64,000 nucleotides of DNA, taken from the NCBI GenBank assembly GCA_030584185.1, contig CP129495.1, positions 1,079,628 through 1,143,627 on the forward strand, read 5' to 3'. Positions within the stretch are counted from its first letter, which is position 1; the number at the start of each line of letters is the position of its first letter. The stretch is from Acidimicrobiia bacterium. GTDB lineage: Bacteria; Actinomycetota; Acidimicrobiia; Spongiisociales; UBA11373. The translations under genes and the position numbers were made by a program. Of the stretch, positions 24,628 to 39,137 are shown piece after piece. The notes under the pieces are model-generated. The model saw nothing but the letters and a program-made list of their open reading frames with translations, was not told where the DNA came from and made no database searches.

Positions 24628-25773
24628 TCAGAGCGCCCGGCACCAGGCGTCGTAGTCGACGAGCGGCGGCGGGCGGGCCTCGTCCCCGCAGGCGGGGCAG
24701 TCCCGAAGCCGCTCGAACCGCAGCGTGGTCGACTCGCCGGAGAGGGCGTCGTGGATGAGCAGCCTTCCCACCAGGGCGTCGCCGGCACCGACCAGGATCT
24801 TGATGGCCTCCACCACCTGCAGCGAGCCGATCGCCCCGGTGAGCGCCCCCAGCACCCCGCCCTCGGCGCAGTCGGCCACAGTCCCCGGATCGGGTGGCAG
24901 CGGATACAGGCAGCGGTAGCACGGCCCCCGATAGGGGTCGAAGACGGTCACCTGGCCCTCCCACCGGTACACCGAGGCGTGCACCACCGGCACCCGCAGG
25001 TGCAAGGAGGCATCGTTCACCAGGTAACGGGTCGGGAAGTTGTCGGTCCCATCGATCACCACGTCGTAGTCCGACATCACATCCAGGGCATTGCCCGCCA
25101 TGAGGGGTTCCTCCCTCGGGAGCACCTCCACGCCGGGATTGAGGCGGCACAGCGCCGCCGCCGCCGAGGCCACCTTGGGCTGTCCGATGCGGTCGGTGTC
25201 GTGGATCACCTGTCGCTGCAGGTTGGAAAGCTCCACCCGGTCGGAGTCGACGATCCCGACCGTGCCCACGCCGGCGGCCGCCAGGTACAGGGCGGCCGGT
25301 GACCCGAGCCCACCGGCCCCGATCACCAGGACCCGGGCGGCGGCTAGTCGCTCCTGGCCCGCCCCCCCGATCCCGGGCAAAGCGACGTTGCGGGCGTAGC
25401 GGGCCGGCCCGGTCCCTTCGGGAAGCATCACCTCCCTTCCCTCGATCCTCCACAGGACGATCCCCCCACTCATGGAGGCGACCCTCCCGTACCCCATCTC
25501 CCGCAGTTCGAGCCCGGCGAGCAGCGACCGCCTGCCGGTGGCACAGAACAAGACGATCTCCGCATCCCGATCGGGCGCGGCATCCGCCACCTCGTCGGCG
25601 AGCCGCTCCCACGGGACCGCCAGCGACCCGGGGATGGTCCCGGCGACGATCTCGTGGTCGTGCCGGACGTCGATCAGCACCAATCCCCCTCCGAGACGCT
25701 CCTCCACGTCACCCGGGGTGACCTCGGGGACGCGGAGCCGCGCCTCCTCCATGCGATCGACGAAGGCGGTCAC
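24628..25773 (-). CDS. sulfur-carrier-protein adenylyltransferase/sulfurtransferase (MoeZ/MoeB-like) with N-terminal rhodanese domain
   Basis: GTG start with GGAGG 8 nt upstream; rhodanese active site LFCATGRRS at N-term, then ThiF/MoeB E1 fold (VLVIGAGGLGSPAALYLAAAGVGTVGIVD, ELSNLQRQ) and Zn motifs CYRC...CPAC; ORF-track N-terminal 190 aa rejected. Confidence 0.8.
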   Translation of the reverse strand: MTAFVDRMEEARLRVPEVTPGDVEERLGGGLVLIDVRHDHEIVAGTIPGSLAVPWERLADEVADAAPDRDAEIVLFCATGRRSLLAGLELREMGYGRVASMSGGIVLWRIEGREVMLPEGTGPARYARNVALPGIGGAGQERLAAARVLVIGAGGLGSPAALYLAAAGVGTVGIVDSDRVELSNLQRQVIHDTDRIGQPKVASAAAALCRLNPGVEVLPREEPLMAGNALDVMSDYDVVIDGTDNFPTRYLVNDASLHLRVPVVHASVYRWEGQVTVFDPYRGPCYRCLYPLPPDPGTVADCAEGGVLGALTGAIGSLQVVEAIKILVGAGDALVGRLLIHDALSGESTTLRFERLRDCPACGDEARPPPLVDYDAWCRAL

Positions 25774-26168
25774 TCCCCTGCCTCCAGGGGTTCCTCGACC
25801 GGCACTCCTTCGACGATCCTCCACGCCCGCATCTCCGGATGGCGGCCTTCGAGGCCGACGATGACATCGATCCATTCGCCTCCGGGAGCACCTGCCATGT
25901 CCGTCGCCGAAGGCAACGCCGGGCCGGCGGGATGCGAGTGGAAGGCGCCCCGGATCGTCCAGCCGTTGGCGTCCGCCATGCGCACCACGCGATGGTGCTC
26001 TGCCGGGTCGATGGTGAACTCGACGGTGGACTGATCGGCGTTGGGCACGCAGTACGCCTTGCGCAGCACACCCTCGGTGTCGAACGCCAGCAGGCCACAG
26101 GCTTCCATCGGCCGCGCCGCCAAGGCTCGCTCCAAGACTTCGACACGGACTAGATCGGTGATGATCAC
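25770..26168 (-). CDS. JAB/MPN-domain metalloprotease (Mec/CysO-hydrolase-like)
   Basis: 132 aa; JAMM motif E..x.. HSHPAGPALPSATD; GTGA overlap with downstream moeZ-like gene. Confidence 0.8.
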   Translation of the reverse strand: MIITDLVRVEVLERALAARPMEACGLLAFDTEGVLRKAYCVPNADQSTVEFTIDPAEHHRVVRMADANGWTIRGAFHSHPAGPALPSATDMAGAPGGEWIDVIVGLEGRHPEMRAWRIVEGVPVEEPLEAGE

Positions 26169-26211
26169 GGCGTGACGCTACCGCGGCCACGCCCACAGGT
26201 GGCCGGGCGCA

Positions 26212-26475
26212 GTGACCGGCCACCTGGCTACTCTTTGCCCCGTGAACGAGCAGATGACCCGAATGTTCGAGGCGGCCTCGCGGCGCACCGTGGCCGTGCG
26301 CACCGCCGAGGGCAAGCCCCTCGCCCGCCTCAAGCTCCTCCATGCCGCGGCGGTCGCCGCCGCCGGGATCGTGATGGCACCCCGCCTCACGGCGACGGCG
26401 GTACTGGGAGCAATGTTCAAGGGGCTGCGGCTCGAGGTCGAGGAGCAGGTGGACCAGCAGCCCGCTGCCGCCTGA
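26212..26475 (+). CDS. small hypothetical protein (possible membrane-associated)
   Basis: 87-aa ORF exactly filling gap between mec start and MFS stop; Ala-rich hydrophobic stretch LLHAAAVAAAGIVMAPRLTATAVLGAMF; start uncertain (ATG 26254 alternative). Confidence 0.3.
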   Translation: MTGHLATLCPVNEQMTRMFEAASRRTVAVRTAEGKPLARLKLLHAAAVAAAGIVMAPRLTATAVLGAMFKGLRLEVEEQVDQQPAAA

Positions 26476-33788: not shown

Positions 33789-34649
33789 TCATGCTGCCCT
33801 GAGCACGTCGAGAGCGATGCTGCCGAACAGCAGCGCCAGGTACAGGTTGGAGTAGCGGAAGGCGCCAAGGGCACGGTCGGGACGGCCTCGAAGGCGCCAG
33901 GCCGCCGCCACCAGGCCGGACCCGAGAACGATCGCGGCCACCGGGTAGATCGGTCCCAGCCCCGCCACGGGAGCGAGCAACAGGCTGACACCGACCACCG
34001 TGATCGAGTAGAGGACGATCTGCGTGACCACCGCTTCCTGACCGGCGACCGCCGGCAGCATCGGCACGCCGGCGGCGGCGTAGTCCTCCCGGAACCGGAT
34101 CGCCAACGCCCAGAAGTGGGGCGGGGTCCAGAAGAACACGATGCCGAACAGTATCCACGCCTCGACCGCCGTGGTCCCGGAGACGGCGGACCACCCGATC
34201 AACGCCGGTGCCGCCCCTGCGGCGCCCCCGATCACGATGTTCTGCGGCGTAGAGCGCTTCAGCCCGAGCGTGTACACCAGCACGTAGAAGAGGAGCGCTC
34301 CGGCGGCGAGGGCGCCGGCGAGCGGCGTGGTCGCCACCGCCAGCAGGCCGACGCCGGCCACGCCGAGCACCAGCCCGAGAAGCAGAGCCTCGGAGGAGGA
34401 GATCCGCTGGCTGGGAAGCGGTCGCTTGCGCGTGCGCGCCATCCGGGCGTCGATGTCGCGATCGATCACGTTGTTCAGCGCGTTGGCCCCACCGGCGGTG
34501 AGGAACCCTCCGGCCAGCGTCGCCGACACCAGGCCGTTGCCCGGCCACCCACCCGCCGCCATCACCATTGCCGGAAGTGTCGTGATGAGCAGCAACTCGA
34601 TGATGCGGGGCTTCACCAGCGCCGACCAGGCGGCGAGACGGCCGCTCAC
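33789..34649 (-). CDS. ctaB: protoheme IX farnesyltransferase (heme O synthase)
   Basis: GTG start (GGAG RBS); UbiA-family motifs LVKPRIIELLLITTLPAM, NALNNVIDRDIDARMARTRKRPLP, WTPPHFWALA. Confidence 0.85.
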   Translation of the reverse strand: MSGRLAAWSALVKPRIIELLLITTLPAMVMAAGGWPGNGLVSATLAGGFLTAGGANALNNVIDRDIDARMARTRKRPLPSQRISSSEALLLGLVLGVAGVGLLAVATTPLAGALAAGALLFYVLVYTLGLKRSTPQNIVIGGAAGAAPALIGWSAVSGTTAVEAWILFGIVFFWTPPHFWALAIRFREDYAAAGVPMLPAVAGQEAVVTQIVLYSITVVGVSLLLAPVAGLGPIYPVAAIVLGSGLVAAAWRLRGRPDRALGAFRYSNLYLALLFGSIALDVLRAA

Positions 34650-34730
34650 GAGGCGACTCCGGCGCGTCTCAGGTTCCCGACATTGAGCAGGTCGGGGAGT
34701 ACGATCACCCGCAGAAGGGAGTCGAAGACC

Positions 34731-34811
34731 ATGAAGAAGATCCTGCTCCTCCTCATCGTGGTCGCGGTTGGCCTGCTGATCGCCAAGCAGTTCACCAGCC
34801 ACGAGCACTGA
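34731..34811 (+). CDS. 26-aa single-TM small peptide (candidate small membrane protein)
   Basis: AGGGAG RBS 8 nt upstream of ATG; MKKILLLLIVVAVGLLIAKQFTSHEH; GC3-rich codon usage consistent with host coding bias; divergent from ctaB. Confidence 0.3.
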   Translation: MKKILLLLIVVAVGLLIAKQFTSHEH

Positions 34812-34869
34812 GCCGAAACCCTGTCGGCGGCCTCCCACCATCGGGAGGCCGCACGCATCTCGACGCCGA

Positions 34870-35781
34870 TCACCCGGAGACGAACCCGGCGATGGCCTTG
34901 GCGATCTCCTCGTGATGGGTGAGCACCGCCTCGTGACGCCCCCCGACCACCTCGTACACCTGTGCGTCCGCGATGGCGGCGGCGGTGGCGTACTGCCTCG
35001 CCGGAAGCACCAACTGATCCTCGGTCGGGATGACGCACAGCGTCGGTATCCGAATCCGTGACACCCGGTCGCGGGCGTCGAAGCGGAGGATGGCGAATCC
35101 GGCCTCGTAGTAGAGGTCCGGATCGCGTTCCATCAGCGACTGCCACAGCCAGGCGGAGTGCTCGGGAGGGATCACCCCGGCGAGCATCATGTACCGATGG
35201 GCGAGGCGCGGCAGGAGAGTGCGGTCGATGCGGCCCAGTGCCCTGCCTGCCACCAGGAGCGGCACCCCCACCGAGCGGGGTACGAACGAAGGGTGTGCGG
35301 CGGTCGCTCCGAGCACCAGCCGGGTGACCCTGCCCGGATGTCGCAGCACGAGCTCCTGAGCCACCATTCCCCCCAGCGAGTACCCGACGACAGGGACGGC
35401 GTCCAGTCCGAGCACGTCGAACACCCTGGCCACGTCGTCGGCGACGTCGGCCACCTCGAAACGACTGCGGATCCGGTCGCTGCGGCCGTGGTTGCGCAGG
35501 TCGATGGCGACCACCCGATGGCTGGTGTCTAGACCGGAGCGAATCCGATGCCAGGTGGCGTGGCTGTCGTACAGCCACCCGTGCAGCAGGACCAGCACAG
35601 GGCCGTCGGCCGGTCCCGACTCGCGCACGAAGAACTCGTGGCGACCGGCGAGCACGGTGCGTCCCGTGGGGCCCGAAGGCCGCTCCTGCGGCCCGGAGGC
35701 CGCCGGAGAGCTCTCCTTGCCGAAAAGGCGCCACAGCACCCATCCCACGAGCGCAGTCAGGACGAGGTTTCGCCGCTTCAC
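34870..35781 (-). CDS. alpha/beta-fold hydrolase
   Basis: nucleophile elbow GYSLGG, HGW oxyanion region (VLVLLHGWLYDSHATW), N-terminal TM anchor. Confidence 0.8.
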   Translation of the reverse strand: MKRRNLVLTALVGWVLWRLFGKESSPAASGPQERPSGPTGRTVLAGRHEFFVRESGPADGPVLVLLHGWLYDSHATWHRIRSGLDTSHRVVAIDLRNHGRSDRIRSRFEVADVADDVARVFDVLGLDAVPVVGYSLGGMVAQELVLRHPGRVTRLVLGATAAHPSFVPRSVGVPLLVAGRALGRIDRTLLPRLAHRYMMLAGVIPPEHSAWLWQSLMERDPDLYYEAGFAILRFDARDRVSRIRIPTLCVIPTEDQLVLPARQYATAAAIADAQVYEVVGGRHEAVLTHHEEIAKAIAGFVSG

Positions 35782-35791
35782 GACACCGAGC

Positions 35792-36223
35792 CTAGGTGTC
35801 GCCGGAATGCAAATCGTCTACGGCGAAGGCGTGTTCGGTCACGACCCGGCCCTCGATGACGTGCTCCCGCACGATCCGCTCCATCACCTCGGGGGTGACC
35901 CGTCGATACCAGACGCCCTCGGGGTACACGACGGCGATCGGCCCATCCTCGCAGATGCGCAGACAGTCGACCTTGGTCCGCAACATGATCCCGTCTCCTG
36001 GCTCACGCACTGGGTCGGCTGTGGGATCGTCCCGCCATGGGGGCGGCGGCGACGCCAGGCCCAGCTCCTTGCTCAGCCGCTTGAGGTGGATCCAGGTCTC
36101 ACGGCTCTCGGGGACGGAAGAACAGCGGGGCACCGTCTGGTCGGCGCAGAGGAACACGTGACGGCGGAGGCGGCCTATGGAGAGGGCGTCGGCGATCGCG
36201 GGGAGCCGGTCGGTGTCGGTCAC
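35792..36223 (-). CDS. thioredoxin-like [2Fe-2S] ferredoxin family protein
   Basis: Cys pattern FLCADQTVPRC ... VDCLRIC typical of thioredoxin-like 2Fe-2S ferredoxins; 4-nt overlap with selD stop. Confidence 0.6.
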   Translation of the reverse strand: MTDTDRLPAIADALSIGRLRRHVFLCADQTVPRCSSVPESRETWIHLKRLSKELGLASPPPPWRDDPTADPVREPGDGIMLRTKVDCLRICEDGPIAVVYPEGVWYRRVTPEVMERIVREHVIEGRVVTEHAFAVDDLHSGDT

Positions 36224-37251
36224 GTCACCACCACGGTACCGGGATGCTCCTCTGTGAACTGCCCGATGACGGCCACGAACACGGCCTCCCGGGTGAGCCC
36301 GGCGAGCAACGGGATCGCCGCGGCCTCGGCGACGGCAATGAGGAGCCCGCCGCTGGTCTGGGCGTCGGCGAGAAGGATGCGGCCCGCCTCGTCGACATCG
36401 CCGAACTCCGTGAACCCCGAAGCGTGCTCCAGGTTGCGGCGCGTGCCGCCCGGCACGACGCCCTCGGCAGCGAAACGGAGCGCCCCGGGAAGGATCGGCA
36501 CCGCCGCCGCATCGAGCCGAACCCCGACGCCGTCGAGCATCTCACCCAGATGTCCAAGGAGCCCGAACCCGGTGACGTCGGTGGCCGCCGACGCCCCGGC
36601 GGCGACTGCGGCACGGCCGGCGCGATCGTTGAGCGCCACCATGGAGGCCACGGCCGCCGCCCGCTCCGCAGGCCCGGCAAGCCCCCGCTTGATCGCGGTG
36701 GAGATCACACCGGTGCCGATCGCCTTGGTCAGGAGCAGCAGGTCGCCTGCCCGAGCCCCACGGTTCCTCAGGATGCGATCCGGATGCACCAGCCCGGTCA
36801 CCGCCAGACCGAACTTGGGCTCCGGGTCGTCGATGGTGTGACCCCCGACGATCGTCACCCCGGCGGCGGCGAGGACCTCGGCCGCCCCGGCGAGGACCTC
36901 CCCCAACAGTTCGAGCGGGAGCGCCTCACGAGGCCACCCCACGATCTGCAGCGCCGTGATCGGGCGCCCGCCCATGGCATAGACGTCGGACAGGGCGTTG
37001 GCGGCGACGATCCGACCCCAGTCGTCGGGCTCGTCGACGATCGGTGTGAAGAAGTCGACGGTCTGGACCAGGGCGGCGTCGTCTGAGACCCGGAACACAC
37101 CGGCGTCGTCCGACCCCTCGATCCCGACCAGCAGGTCGGGATGATGGACCGCATCCAGGTTCTCCAGACGGCGCAGGACCTGCGCCAACTCACCGGGGGC
37201 GAGCTTGCAGGCTCAGCCGGCCCCGTGCGAGTACGACGTCAAGCGCTCCAC
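36220..37251 (-). CDS. selD: selenide, water dikinase (selenophosphate synthetase), selenocysteine-containing form
   Basis: ORF track truncates at TTG 37188; in-frame upstream extension gives GTG 37251 (AGGAGG 5 nt upstream) M-ERLTSYSHGAG-[TGA 37213..37215]-ACKLAPGELAQVL, matching SelD N-terminal SHGAG(C/U)GCK active-site motif; rest of protein has SelD/AIR-synthase-related fold (DAGVF..., GGHTIDD). Confidence 0.8.
37165..37212 (-). promoter_or_regulatory. candidate SECIS element downstream of selD UGA
   Basis: hairpin GGCGCAG-GUC-CUGCGCC (7-bp stem) beginning ~28 nt 3' of UGA codon within coding sequence. Confidence 0.4.
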
Positions 37252-37337
37252 GGTCACCTCCTTCCCGCCCGGAGTGTACGAACGTGCTGCCGTCGAGCGA
37301 TCGAGGCGTCACCGCCTCCGGCTACATTCGGCCGGAG

Positions 37338-37922
37338 ATGAGCCGCTCCGCCAAGATCGCCTTCATCGGGTCCCACTCGGTGCGAAAGACCAACGCCGTG
37401 CACTCCTTCGCCGGCGCAGTCGGGCGCAGCGGACGAAGCGTCGAAGTGGGTCGGGAGGTGGTTCGCTTCAATCCCCTCGGCCTCAACGAGGGAGCGTCCG
37501 CCGAGGCGCAGCTCTGGGTGCTGGTCACCCAGATCCAGCAGGAGCTGGAGCTTGCGGACCGATGCGACGTCCTGGTCACCGATCGGGCGGTGGTGGACAA
37601 CTACGCGTACTTCCTGCGTGTCACCGACGGGGCCGATCCCTTCGGCGTCGAGGCCCTGGTGAGACGATGGGCCTCCACCTACGACCTCTTCGTGCGGCTG
37701 CTCCCCGACGTCGCCCTCCAGGCCGACGGCGTGCGCTCGGTCAACGACGCCTTTCGCCAGGAGATCGAAGAGATCCTGGACCGGCTGCTGCCCGACTTCA
37801 TCGCCGATGAGAGGCTGATCACCATTCCGGCTTCCCAGGTGAGCGACCGATTCGACTGGGGCGCCCTGGTGGAGCGTCTCTTCACCGAAGAGACGGCGGG
37901 CGCCGTACCGGGCCCGACCTAA
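37338..37922 (+). CDS. P-loop ATPase/kinase-like protein (AAA_28-like)
   Basis: divergent from selD; N-terminal KIAFIGSHSVRKT (deviant P-loop), DRAVVDNYAY; weak family assignment. Confidence 0.45.
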   Translation: MSRSAKIAFIGSHSVRKTNAVHSFAGAVGRSGRSVEVGREVVRFNPLGLNEGASAEAQLWVLVTQIQQELELADRCDVLVTDRAVVDNYAYFLRVTDGADPFGVEALVRRWASTYDLFVRLLPDVALQADGVRSVNDAFRQEIEEILDRLLPDFIADERLITIPASQVSDRFDWGALVERLFTEETAGAVPGPT

Positions 37923-37931
37923 CCTGGCGAG

Positions 37932-39137
37932 ATGATCGGGGTCGAGGAGTTCCGTGCCGAGGCCCGGGATTGGCTTGCCGCCAACGTTCCTCTTCGCAGC
38001 GGTGACGACAACCCGGCGGTGCTGTTTCCCGAGAGGCGCGACGAACCCGCCTATGTGGCCGAGGCCAAGCGATGGCAAAGGCGCATCGCCGAGGCCGGGT
38101 TTGCCGGGATCACCTGGCCCGGCGAGTACGGCGGTCGCGACCTGACGACGGCGCACCAGGTGGCCTGGGTACGGGAGGCCGCCGCCTACGACCTCCCCCT
38201 CGAGCTGTTCGCCATCGGCGTGGGCATGGGAGGGCCCACCGTGCTCGCCTGGGGCACCCTGGAGCAGAAGGAGAGGTGGCTGCGCCCCATGCTGCGCGGC
38301 GACGAGATCTGGTGCCAGCTGTTCTCCGAGCCCAACGCAGGCAGCGACGTCGCCGGCATCCAGACGCGTGCAACCGCCGACGGCGACGAGTGGATCGTGC
38401 ACGGACAGAAGGTGTGGACCAGCGGCGCCCATCTCTCCAGGTGGGGGATGCTGATAGCCCGCACCGACCCGGAGGCACCGAAGCATGCCGGGATCACCTA
38501 CTTCATCCTCGACATGGAACAGCCCGGGGTGGAGGTGAGACCGCTGCGACAGATGACCGGCGGCGCCAACTTCAACGAGGTGTTCCTGGATGGAGCCCGG
38601 ATCCCGGCCGCACAGATGCTCGGTGAGCCGGGAATGGGCTGGTCGGTGGCGCTGACGACGCTCATGAACGAGCGCACCTCGATAGGTGCCCTTGGTGGCC
38701 TGTCCAGTGGAGCCGGGATGGCGGCCCTTCGTCGGCTCCTCGGCGAGGTCGAGGACCGCCTCCGAGCCGATCCGATGCAGGACACGGTGACCCGGCAGGC
38801 TCTAGCCGACATCTACGTGCGCGCCCGCGTGCTCGAGTTCCACGGGGGGAGGATCCTGGCCAAGATGGAGCGGGGCGAGATCCCCACCGCCGAGGGTTCG
38901 GTTGCCAAGCTCGCTCTCGGCGACCTGCTCGAGAGGCTCGCCTCCTTCGGTGTGGGAGTCCAGGGAAGCACTGGGATGCTCGCCGGGGACGACGCCATCG
39001 GCGACGGCCAGTGGACGCAGGTGCTTCTGGGATGGCCCGGGCTTCGTATCGCCGGAGGCACCGACGAGATCATGCGCAACGTCATCGGCGAACGCGTCCT
39101 CGGCCTCCCTCGAGAGCCGCGTCCCACCGGCACCTGA
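37932..39137 (+). CDS. acyl-CoA dehydrogenase family protein
   Basis: 401 aa; ACAD motifs QLFSEPNAGSDVAGIQTRA, WTSGAH, C-terminal four-helix domain. Confidence 0.85.
   Translation: MIGVEEFRAEARDWLAANVPLRSGDDNPAVLFPERRDEPAYVAEAKRWQRRIAEAGFAGITWPGEYGGRDLTTAHQVAWVREAAAYDLPLELFAIGVGMGGPTVLAWGTLEQKERWLRPMLRGDEIWCQLFSEPNAGSDVAGIQTRATADGDEWIVHGQKVWTSGAHLSRWGMLIARTDPEAPKHAGITYFILDMEQPGVEVRPLRQMTGGANFNEVFLDGARIPAAQMLGEPGMGWSVALTTLMNERTSIGALGGLSSGAGMAALRRLLGEVEDRLRADPMQDTVTRQALADIYVRARVLEFHGGRILAKMERGEIPTAEGSVAKLALGDLLERLASFGVGVQGSTGMLAGDDAIGDGQWTQVLLGWPGLRIAGGTDEIMRNVIGERVLGLPREPRPTGT

What the first reader, a model, noticed from the sequence alone, without database searches (positions are those of the whole stretch)
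37165..37251. selD encodes a selenoprotein: in-frame TGA (Sec) plus SECIS-like hairpin, missed by ORF calling
The ORF track starts selD at TTG 37188, which removes the catalytic N-terminus. Reading further upstream in the same frame gives GTG(37251)-E-R-L-T-S-Y-S-H-G-A-G-TGA(37213-37215)-A-C-K-L-A-P-G-E-L. This aligns residue-for-residue with the SelD active-site loop SHGAG(C/U)GCK, in which E. coli has Cys17 and Haemophilus-type enzymes have Sec. AGGAGG sits 5 nt upstream of that GTG. A 7-bp perfect hairpin (GGCGCAG-GUC-CUGCGCC) begins ~28 nt 3' of the UGA. Together these imply a complete Sec-insertion machinery elsewhere in the genome and make selD autoregulated by selenium.
Basis: partly seen in the sequence, partly recalled or inferred. 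Interest (0 to 1): 0.72.

Follow-up and report, generated by a model that had tools for sequence, protein, structure and literature searches.

The report
Selenocysteine-type selD gene, truncated by ORF callers
This is a normal selenophosphate synthetase gene whose catalytic residue is a UGA-encoded selenocysteine followed by a conserved insertion hairpin, which is real and mis-annotated in databases but belongs to one of the commonest bacterial selenoprotein families.

Summary
On the minus strand, GTG 37251 (AGGAGG 5 nt upstream) opens a 343-codon selD reading frame. It holds one in-frame TGA (37215-37213) at the position of E. coli Cys17.

The TGA is not an error. It is identical in four independent read-set assemblies of the same organism. 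The same codon is TGA in 39 of 80 species-level relatives (Acidimicrobiia, other Actinomycetota, Gemmatimonadota, Chloroflexota); the other 41 have TGC or TGT.

It forms in 39/40 Sec-type genes against 4/25 Cys-type genes. Among genes encoding the identical AQVLR peptide, 34/34 Sec-type keep it against 1/4 Cys-type. Its outer pairs show compensatory changes, and it decays after each of about nine independent Sec-to-Cys conversions. A second, proximal hairpin also covaries.

Not shown: tRNA-Sec, selA and selB are absent from the 64-kb window and could not be searched for genome-wide. Selenium autoregulation remains an inference.

Sec-type SelD is the second most widespread prokaryotic selenoprotein family. 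This is therefore a confirmed but ordinary new member and an annotation fix. Interest is low.

The parts
37257..37262 (-). Shine-Dalgarno sequence AGGAGG, 5 nt upstream of the GTG start
   Evidence: Read directly. The start agrees with the full-length Cys-type homologs P0002 and P0003 (M-E/D-R-L-T-S-Y-S-H-G-A-G-C).
36220..37251 (-). Full selD coding sequence: 343 codons plus stop, with GTG start 37251-37249 and terminal TGA 36222-36220
   Evidence: Translation. TIGR00476 selD scores 391.7 bits over residues 3-311 = profile 1-310/311. Pfam AIRS and AIRS_C domains found. E. coli SelD structure 3u0o matches at E = 9e-83.
37213..37215 (-). In-frame UGA, codon 13, read as selenocysteine (equivalent to E. 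coli Cys17)
   Evidence: Identical in four independent assemblies L081-L084. The same codon is TGA in 39 loci and TGC/TGT in 41 loci. TGA is otherwise the normal stop: 37 of 43 GC3-supported ORFs end in it.
37187..37205 (-). Proximal hairpin AGCUCGCC-CCC-GGUGAGUU, offsets +10 to +28 from the U of UGA; probable spacer or lower-helix part of the SECIS
   Evidence: Folds at -9.2 kcal/mol, z = -4.3. RNAalifold predicts it independently, with a GC<->CG swap at pair 17-23 in 10 sequences. At least 4 of 5 bp form in 37/40 Sec-type against 11/25 Cys-type genes.
37170..37186 (-). Distal hairpin GGCGCAG-GUC-CUGCGCC, the presumed SelB-binding apical stem-loop of the SECIS; the loop GUC is at 37179-37177, 33 nt after the UGA
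   Evidence: Folds at -12.8 kcal/mol. At least 6 of 7 bp form in 39/40 Sec-type against 4/25 Cys-type genes, p = 4e-12. Third-codon-position entropy is 0-0.17 in the stem and 1.28 at the third loop base. With the AQVLR peptide held fixed, the core is intact in 34/34 Sec-type against 1/4 Cys-type genes. Compensatory GC->AU and GC->CG changes occur in pairs 30-46 and 31-45. Fits the bSECIS model in PMC13188914.
37186..37188 (-). TTG used as a false start by mechanical ORF calling and by public gene callers; it lies at the junction of the two SECIS hairpins
   Evidence: One search lists the ORF as 36220..37188. Database entries P0001, P0007, P0014, P0027 and P0028 are 322 aa and begin at (M/L)AQVLRRL.

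Best explanation
This is a selenocysteine-type selenophosphate synthetase gene (selD) from an uncultured Acidimicrobiia-like actinobacterium.

Proposed mechanism:
1. Translation starts at GTG 37251, behind a strong Shine-Dalgarno sequence.
2. After 12 codons the ribosome meets UGA (37215-37213).
3. The mRNA just downstream forms two adjacent hairpins. The distal one (37186-37170) has a 7-8 bp GC-rich stem and a GUC loop 33 nt from the UGA. It is the bacterial SECIS element.
4. SelB-GTP-Sec-tRNA(Sec) binds this hairpin and delivers selenocysteine to the UGA.
5. The product is a 343-aa enzyme with Sec13 beside Lys16 in the glycine-rich catalytic loop SHGAG-U-ACK.

Shown here: gene identity; the UGA is real and conserved; the hairpin is under RNA-level selection specifically in UGA-type genes.

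Inferred: SelB binding, actual Sec insertion, presence of selA/selB/selC elsewhere in the genome, and positive feedback of selenium supply on SelD synthesis. Expression of the translationally coupled downstream genes may also depend on selenium.
For: Gene identity:
- TIGR00476 selD scores 391.7 bits from profile position 1.
- Residue 13 aligns with Cys17 of E. coli SelD.
- The nearest full-length homologs read SYSHGAG-C-ACKLAPGELAQVLRRL.

The UGA is real:
- The 49-nt UGA-plus-hairpins segment matches exactly in four assemblies from different sequencing runs. In two of them (L081, L082) the surrounding 171 nt is also identical to the window.
- The encoded protein of those two assemblies (P0001) differs from the window's SelD at 3 residues elsewhere, so they are separate strains.
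- TGA sits at the same codon in 39 of 80 species-level genomes.
- The five codons before the UGA stay SHG(A/G/S)G across 22 distinct nucleotide versions, including TCN<->AGC serine switches. That region is therefore translated.

The hairpin is a SECIS:
- It fits all four criteria of the bSECIS model: 3-nt loop starting G-U, 7-8 bp stem, 33 nt spacing, -12.8 kcal/mol.
- At least 6 of 7 bp form in 39/40 Sec-type against 4/25 Cys-type genes.
- In Sec-type genes Ala is always GCG, Leu always CTG, and Arg only CGC or CGT, while the loop Val codon uses all four third bases.
- With an identical AQVLR peptide, the core is intact in 34/34 Sec-type against 1/4 Cys-type genes.
- Compensatory GC->AU and GC->CG changes occur. 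97% of cells pair, against 27-50% when the partner is slid by 1-3 columns.
- The hairpin decays after about nine independent Sec->Cys conversions on the SelD tree.
- The apical GCAG-GUC-CUGC resembles the E. coli fdhF SECIS GCA-GGUC-UGC.

The class does decode Sec: a Microthrixaceae MAG has tRNA-SeC, selD, selA and selB together.
Against: - No tRNA-Sec, selA or selB lies in the 64-kb window or in the flanks of any Sec-type relative. The machinery is unverified for this genome.
- The four innermost stem pairs never or almost never vary (three are invariant, one departs in a single sequence), so they give no covariation signal. True compensatory changes are confined to the two outer pairs and are few.
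- The sequences are phylogenetically related, so the Fisher p-values overstate independence.
- The UGA-to-loop spacing (33 nt) is near the upper limit of the 16-37 nt range and is 15 nt longer than in fdhF.
- Rfam has no matching family, so there is no independent model-based confirmation.
Confidence: 0.9

Rival explanations
1. The UGA is a genuine stop. The gene is a pseudogene, or it makes an N-terminally truncated SelD from TTG 37188, as the ORF callers assume.
For: Mechanical ORF calling and public gene calls (P0001 and others, 322 aa) use this model. No Sec machinery is seen in the window.
Against: The truncated product would lack the catalytic loop containing Sec/Cys17 and Lys20. The 12 upstream codons are conserved as protein with synonymous variation across 39 species. 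A strong SD precedes the GTG, not the TTG. The TTG lies inside the conserved hairpins. A nonsense mutation would not persist at one codon across several phyla.
Confidence: 0.02
2. The UGA is read through without selenocysteine, by near-cognate Trp/Cys/Arg insertion. The hairpins then act as a generic read-through stimulator, as proposed for the hymenopteran SPS1-UGA element.
For: Stem-loops next to UGA that promote non-Sec read-through are described in SPS genes (PMC4561486). The Sec machinery was not demonstrated for this genome.
Against: The UGA replaces exactly the catalytic Cys, as in established Sec-type SelD enzymes. The hairpin fits the SelB-type bSECIS model, including the G-U loop start, and resembles the fdhF SelB-binding loop. 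Sec decoding exists in the class. Literature reports that Sec-decoding bacteria lacking FdhA always have Sec-SelD (PMC1794560).
Confidence: 0.03
3. The hairpin conservation reflects something other than SECIS function, such as peptide constraint on AQVLR, codon bias in a GC-rich genome, or an mRNA-stability element.
For: GCG-CAG-GTC-CTG-CGC uses common GC-rich codons. The inner four pairs are invariant or nearly so, and thus uninformative for covariation. The 71-nt region is not more stable than shuffles.
Against: Cys-type genes with the same AQVLR peptide break the stem by synonymous changes in 3 of 4 cases; Sec-type genes do so in 0 of 34. Cys-type homologs vary the peptide freely, with 14 different versions. 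The loop third base is free while stem third bases are frozen. Outer pairs change in a compensatory way. The stem decays after each Sec->Cys conversion.
Confidence: 0.03

Closest known systems
Selenocysteine-containing selenophosphate synthetase (Sec-type SelD; e.g. Haemophilus influenzae/Pasteurellales, Aquifex aeolicus, Clostridia, Rubrobacter, Symbiobacterium)
   Same: Same enzyme family (TIGR00476). UGA sits at the catalytic Cys17-equivalent position in the N-terminal glycine-rich loop, next to the conserved Lys. A stem-loop lies in the coding sequence just downstream. SelD is the second most widespread prokaryotic selenoprotein family (PMC13188914), and Sec-SelD is already recorded in Actinobacteria (PMC1794560).
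   Different: This lineage consists of uncultured Acidimicrobiia, with 79% identity to the nearest species-level genome. The SECIS here is two adjacent hairpins with the loop 33 nt from the UGA.
Cys-type SelD (E. coli SelD, PDB 3u0o)
   Same: Full-length alignment at E = 9e-83 with the same domains. Catalytic loop is SHGAG-C-GCK against SHGAG-U-ACK. The closest relatives of the window gene (L001, P0002, P0003; 76-79% identity) are Cys-type with identical flanking residues.
   Different: Cys codon in place of UGA. No requirement for the downstream hairpin, which is absent or decayed in 21 of the 25 motif-aligned Cys-type loci. The other 16 Cys-type loci also lack the GCGCAG...CUGCGC stem on inspection of their sequences and folds.
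E. coli fdhF SECIS (the reference SelB-binding element)
   Same: A hairpin within the coding sequence downstream of UGA. The apical sequence GCA-GGUC-UGC in fdhF (sequence confirmed in 5,413 genomes) compares with GCAG-GUC-CUGC here. G-U is exposed in the loop. Both satisfy the bSECIS consensus.
   Different: In fdhF the loop starts 18 nt after the UGA in one continuous long stem, with a bulged U (the bulge is from my own knowledge). Here the loop starts 33 nt after the UGA, no bulge is present, and a separate proximal hairpin fills the gap. The host gene also differs.

Membership tests
SelD / selenophosphate synthetase (TIGR00476) | Whole-protein score above the curated equivalog cutoff | tested here: met
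   391.7 bits against a cutoff of 125. NF002098 scores 368.4 against 299.
SelD / selenophosphate synthetase (TIGR00476) | AIR-synthase-related N- and C-terminal domains | tested here: met
   PF00586 at 92.5 bits and PF02769 at 58.7 bits.
SelD / selenophosphate synthetase (TIGR00476) | N-terminal glycine-rich loop with catalytic Cys/Sec and Lys (E. coli Cys17, Lys20) | tested here: met
   SHGAG-U13-A-C-K16 aligns with E. coli residues 13-20, with U13 on Cys17 and K16 on Lys20.
SelD / selenophosphate synthetase (TIGR00476) | ATP-dependent selenophosphate synthesis activity | not testable with these tools
   Requires an enzyme assay.
Bacterial selenoprotein gene | In-frame UGA aligned with Cys in homologs (Sec/Cys pair), with coding signal on both sides | tested here: met
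   39 TGA against 41 TGC/TGT at the same codon. GC3 is 0.84 upstream and 0.86 downstream of the TGA. The upstream peptide is conserved with synonymous variation.
Bacterial selenoprotein gene | UGA is not a sequencing error or a reassigned codon | tested here: met
   Four independent assemblies are identical. TGA ends 37 of 43 GC3-supported ORFs in the window.
Bacterial selenoprotein gene | Genome encodes tRNA-Sec (selC), SelA and SelB | not testable with these tools
   None in the 64-kb window, and the rest of the genome is unavailable. The class has them: L066/L070 carry a tRNA-SeC-selD-selA-selB cluster.
Bacterial selenoprotein gene | Selenium actually incorporated at the UGA | not testable with these tools
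   Needs 75Se labelling or mass spectrometry.
Bacterial SECIS element (bSECIS consensus model, PMC13188914 Fig. 2A) | Apical loop of 3-9 nt on an upper stem of 4-16 bp | tested here: met
   3-nt loop and a 7-bp stem; 8 bp in the RNAalifold consensus.
Bacterial SECIS element (bSECIS consensus model, PMC13188914 Fig. 2A) | G in the first or second loop position, usually followed by G or U | tested here: met
   The loop is G-U-C. G36 and U37 are invariant in all 40 Sec-type sequences.
Bacterial SECIS element (bSECIS consensus model, PMC13188914 Fig. 2A) | 16-37 nt between the UGA and the apical loop | tested here: met
   33 nt, with no indel in any of the 39 aligned sequences.
Bacterial SECIS element (bSECIS consensus model, PMC13188914 Fig. 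2A) | MFE of -7.5 kcal/mol or lower | tested here: met
   -12.8 kcal/mol for the distal hairpin alone.
Bacterial SECIS element (bSECIS consensus model, PMC13188914 Fig. 2A) | Structure maintained by selection (covariation or synonymous-site conservation) in UGA-type homologs only | tested here: met
   The signal is strong at synonymous sites. It is modest for true compensatory changes, which occur in only two pairs of the distal stem and three of the proximal stem.
Bacterial SECIS element (bSECIS consensus model, PMC13188914 Fig. 2A) | Binds SelB and directs Sec insertion | not testable with these tools
   Needs a binding or reporter assay.

The most novel reading that the evidence does not exclude
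The SelD SECIS of this multi-phylum clade (Acidimicrobiia, other Actinomycetota, Gemmatimonadota, Chloroflexota) may be a distinct two-hairpin class. Its SelB-binding loop is held exactly 33 nt from the UGA, 15 nt further than in fdhF, and its nucleotides are almost frozen across phyla. That would imply a SelB with different geometry, or repeated horizontal transfer of selD. Separately, the conserved, translationally coupled selD / thioredoxin-like [2Fe-2S] ferredoxin / alpha-beta hydrolase / UbiA prenyltransferase gene order in the Acidimicrobiia members could mark an uncharacterised selenium-delivery or selenium-utilisation pathway.
Probability: 0.12. Interest if true: 0.4.

Novelty: new member of a known kind. 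Interest (0 to 1): 0.18.

Why it matters
The practical value is annotation.
- The true selD product is 343 aa with Sec13, not the 322-aa fragment recorded here.
- Dozens of public database entries for this clade carry the same truncation. Among the best hits, many 311-331-aa entries begin at or just after the AQVLR peptide.

The finding also marks the organism as a selenocysteine decoder. It predicts selA, selB, selC and probably other selenoproteins elsewhere in its genome.

The paired set of 39 Sec-type and 41 Cys-type relatives, with about nine independent conversions, gives a clear natural example of a SECIS decaying once the UGA is lost. None of this changes current understanding of selenoprotein biology.

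Tried and rejected
- Rfam, gathering thresholds over the whole window and permissive thresholds over 37050-37350: nothing relevant. The one weak hit (MH_s15, 15 bits against a 123-bit cutoff) is chance.
- ARAGORN on the window and on 52 loci: tRNA-SeC in L070 only.
- Pfam/NCBIfam on 39 window ORFs: no SelA, SelB, YbbB, or other selenium-trait gene.
- Local tblastn with SelA and SelB probes from L070 against the window and all loci: hits in L066/L070 only.
- Scan of the window for other in-frame TGAs with coding signal on both sides: only selD is credible. The others are off-frame, low-complexity artefacts.
- The 410-aa ORF 37254-38486 (-) upstream of selD: rejected as a shadow ORF. It has no family hit. 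An AAA_28 gene and an acyl-CoA dehydrogenase occupy the + strand there.
- Identifying the source genome through exact-protein look-ups: only short Logan contigs (50 kb or less) from many runs, so the genome-wide machinery test was not possible.
- Folding energy of the 71-nt region as evidence: rejected because z = -0.9.
- Lin et al. 2015 (PMC5322559), checked for the ferredoxin/hydrolase/UbiA neighbours: no mention.

Full report
OBSERVATION. On the minus strand the sequence reads AGGAGG (37262-37257), then 5 nt, then GTG (37251-37249). It continues GAG CGC TTG ACG TCG TAC TCG CAC GGG GCC GGC TGA (37215-37213) GCC TGC AAG CTC GCC CCC GGT GAG TTG GCG CAG GTC CTG CGC C. Translation from the GTG to the terminal stop at 36222-36220 gives 343 residues with one internal stop, VERLTSYSHGAG*ACKLAPGELAQVLRRL.... 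The mechanical ORF list starts the gene at TTG 37188, giving 322 aa. There are 26 nt between the UGA and its first base, and 33 nt between the UGA and the loop.

GENE IDENTITY. With Cys substituted for the stop, the 343-aa product scores 391.7 bits on the selD equivalog TIGR00476 (cutoff 125). Residues 3-311 cover profile positions 1-310 of 311, so the 21 codons added upstream of the TTG belong to the family model. Both AIRS domains are present. Against solved structures the best match is E. coli SelD, 3u0o, at E = 9e-83. In that alignment residue 13 falls on Cys17 and residue 16 on Lys20. The nearest full-length database homologs are 73-78% identical, named SelD from Actinomycetota/Acidimicrobiia MAGs, and read (M)ERLTSYSHGAG-C-ACKLAPGELAQVLRRL. 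A second class of hits is 322 aa long and starts at (M/L)AQVLRRL. That is the signature of genes cut at the same TGA by gene callers.

IS THE TGA REAL? The 49-nt segment spanning the UGA and both hairpins matches exactly in four assemblies from four different sequencing runs (L081-L084). For two of them (L081, L082) the surrounding 171 nt is also identical to the window. The encoded protein of L081/L082 (P0001) differs from the window's SelD at 3 residues, so these are separate strains. In 80 species-level genome loci found with the protein, the homologous codon is TGA in 39 and TGC/TGT in 41. The TGA-type genes come from Acidimicrobiia, other Actinomycetota, Gemmatimonadota/Longimicrobiales and Chloroflexota. 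The five codons before the TGA encode SHG(A/G/S)G in all 40 sequences through 22 different nucleotide versions. These include TCN/AGC serine switches, so that stretch is translated in this frame. TGA is the ordinary stop in this genome, ending 37 of 43 GC3-supported ORFs, so a reassigned genetic code is excluded.

IS THE HAIRPIN A SECIS? The published consensus for bacterial SECIS elements requires four things: a 3-9 nt apical loop on a 4-16 bp stem; a G in loop position 1 or 2, usually followed by G or U; 16-37 nt between the UGA and the loop; and MFE of -7.5 kcal/mol or lower (PMC13188914). The distal hairpin has a 3-nt loop G-U-C, a 7-bp stem (8 bp in the RNAalifold consensus), 33 nt of spacing, and folds at -12.8 kcal/mol. 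The comparative evidence is as follows.
- (i) The stem forms with at least 6 of 7 pairs in 39/40 TGA-type genes but in only 4/25 aligned Cys-type genes (Fisher p = 4e-12). The 16 further Cys-type loci also lack it.
- (ii) In TGA-type genes the synonymous third positions inside the stem are frozen, with entropy 0, 0.17 and 0 bits at offsets 32, 35 and 41. In Cys-type genes the values are 1.30, 1.41 and 0.90. The third base of the loop codon is free, at 1.28 bits. Ala is GCG in 35 of 35 cases, Leu is CTG in 40 of 40, and Arg is only CGC or CGT, both of which pair with G.
- (iii) Holding the peptide constant at AQVLR, 34/34 TGA-type genes keep a perfect 6-bp core. Only 1 of 4 Cys-type genes does. 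The other three each carry one synonymous change that breaks a pair (p = 5e-4).
- (iv) The two outer pairs show compensatory changes. Pair 31-45 is GC in 29 sequences, GU in 6 and AU in 3. Pair 30-46 is GC in 32, CG in 2, AU in 1 and GU in 2. L011 keeps the stem through a bulge. Overall 97.2% of cells pair, against 27-50% when the 3' partner is slid by 1-3 columns.
- (v) On a neighbour-joining SelD tree, Sec is the majority state of a large clade, with about nine separate Sec-to-Cys conversions. The hairpin is intact only in the most recent one (L001). It is one mismatch off in L014, L027 and L068, and gone in the older ones.

Caveats on the SECIS evidence. The four inner pairs are invariant or nearly so, and so say nothing by covariation. 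The sequences are related, so the p-values are optimistic. The 71-nt region as a whole is not more stable than shuffled sequence (z = -0.9).

PROXIMAL HAIRPIN. RNAalifold independently predicts a 5-bp hairpin at alignment columns 14-18/22-26, with a GC<->CG exchange at pair 17-23 in 10 sequences. At least 4 of 5 pairs form in 37/40 Sec-type against 11/25 Cys-type genes (p = 2.5e-5). Its loop has no conserved G and starts 15 nt from the UGA, so it does not itself fit the SelB-binding model. I read it as the equivalent of the lower helix of classical SECIS elements. That helix is melted as the ribosome reaches the UGA (PMC13188914). This reading is inference.

COMPARISON WITH fdhF. The E. coli fdhF SECIS sequence that I recalled matched 5,413 E. 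coli genomes at 99% identity or better, with the listed hits at 100%, under the annotated selenocysteine-containing fdhF. Its apical part, GCA-GGUC-UGC, is very close to GCAG-GUC-CUGC here. The differences are the spacing (18 against 33 nt from the UGA to the loop) and the two-hairpin layout in place of one long stem.

SEC MACHINERY. ARAGORN and Rfam find no tRNA in the window. Pfam/NCBIfam scans of 39 ORFs show no SelA, SelB or other selenium-trait gene. SelA and SelB probes taken from L070 hit nothing in the window or in the flanks of any Sec-type locus. One relative, a Microthrixaceae MAG (L066/L070, Cys-type selD), has tRNA-SeC immediately upstream of selD, followed by selA and selB. So the class includes Sec decoders, but the machinery is normally unlinked to selD. 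The source organism appears only as Logan contigs of 50 kb or less, so the genome-wide test could not be run. [quoted passage not shown]

MECHANISM. The steps are: initiation at GTG 37251; UGA at codon 13 recoded by SelB-GTP-Sec-tRNA(Sec) bound to the distal hairpin; and a 343-aa SelD with Sec13 in the catalytic loop. SelD makes the selenophosphate needed to charge tRNA(Sec). Its own synthesis would therefore depend on selenium supply, which is positive feedback. The next gene overlaps the selD stop by 4 nt (GTGA at 36223-36220), so termination at codon 13 could also lower its translation. Both of these points are inference.

RIVALS. Three alternatives were considered and are each rated at or below 0.03.
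- A true stop, giving a pseudogene or a TTG-initiated fragment. It is contradicted by protein-level conservation upstream, the SD position, and the persistence of the TGA across phyla.
- Sec-independent read-through stimulated by the hairpins, as proposed for insect SPS1-UGA (PMC4561486). It cannot be excluded by computation, but it is disfavoured by the fit to the SelB-type model and by the Cys/Sec pairing at the catalytic residue.
- Hairpin conservation due to peptide or codon bias. It is contradicted by the fixed-peptide control and by decay of the stem after Sec loss.

NOVELTY. SelD is the second most widespread prokaryotic selenoprotein family (PMC13188914). Sec-SelD is already listed for Actinobacteria such as Rubrobacter and Symbiobacterium (PMC1794560). 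The bSECIS of Sec-type SelD genes has been described (PMC4561486). This is a new member of a known kind and a correction of a systematic annotation error, not a new mechanism. Interest is 0.18.

Noticed in passing
window 33789-36223 (-), with L001-L011 and L018: selD is followed by a 143-aa protein whose GTG start overlaps the selD stop (GTGA, 36223-36220), then an alpha/beta hydrolase (35781-34870) and a UbiA prenyltransferase (34841-33789). The 143-aa protein has four Cys and only weak similarity to thioredoxin-like [2Fe-2S] ferredoxins (NCBIfam NF041612 E = 2e-13; Pfam PF01257/PF06999 below cutoff). The gene order is conserved in 12 Acidimicrobiia loci, both Sec- and Cys-type. It is not mentioned among the selenium-linked candidates in PMC5322559.
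   Followed up: partly
L070 9869-14119 (and L066): A Microthrixaceae MAG carries tRNA-SeC, selD (Cys-type), selA and selB in a row. selD and selA read as one 858-codon ORF. selB is split between two frames. These are either assembly frameshifts or real fusion and decay.
   Followed up: partly
Database proteins P0001, P0007, P0010, P0012-P0014, P0022-P0029 and others: Many of the best SelD hits are 311-331-aa entries that cover only about 91-94% of the query. Those retrieved begin at (M/L)AQVLRRL or just after it, which suggests Sec-type selD genes cut at the UGA. TGA was confirmed directly at the DNA level only for the P0001 contigs and, via matching contig length, probably for P0027 (= L004). 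The mis-annotation looks systematic for this clade.
   Followed up: partly
window 37254-38486 (-): The 410-aa ORF immediately upstream of selD has no family hit. It lies antisense to real + strand genes, an AAA_28 P-loop protein (37284/37338-37922) and an acyl-CoA dehydrogenase (37932-39137). It is a shadow ORF typical of high-GC DNA.
   Followed up: yes
window 24628-26343 (-): A ThiF-family adenylyltransferase fused to a rhodanese domain (MoeZ-like sulfur-carrier activation). Rhodanese domains can also handle selenium. No link to selD was examined.
   Followed up: no
L001 208-300: The closest species-level relative has TGC (Cys) at the Sec position but still carries the complete distal and proximal hairpins. 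This is an apparently very recent Sec-to-Cys conversion with a fossil SECIS.
   Followed up: partly
L018 (CAXMOL010000195.1): This contig is labelled 'uncultured Kiloniellaceae' (Alphaproteobacteria). However, its selD, ferredoxin-like gene, hydrolase, UbiA, AAA_28 and MgtE genes match the Acidimicrobiia synteny at 62-74% identity. It is probably a mis-binned contig.
   Followed up: no
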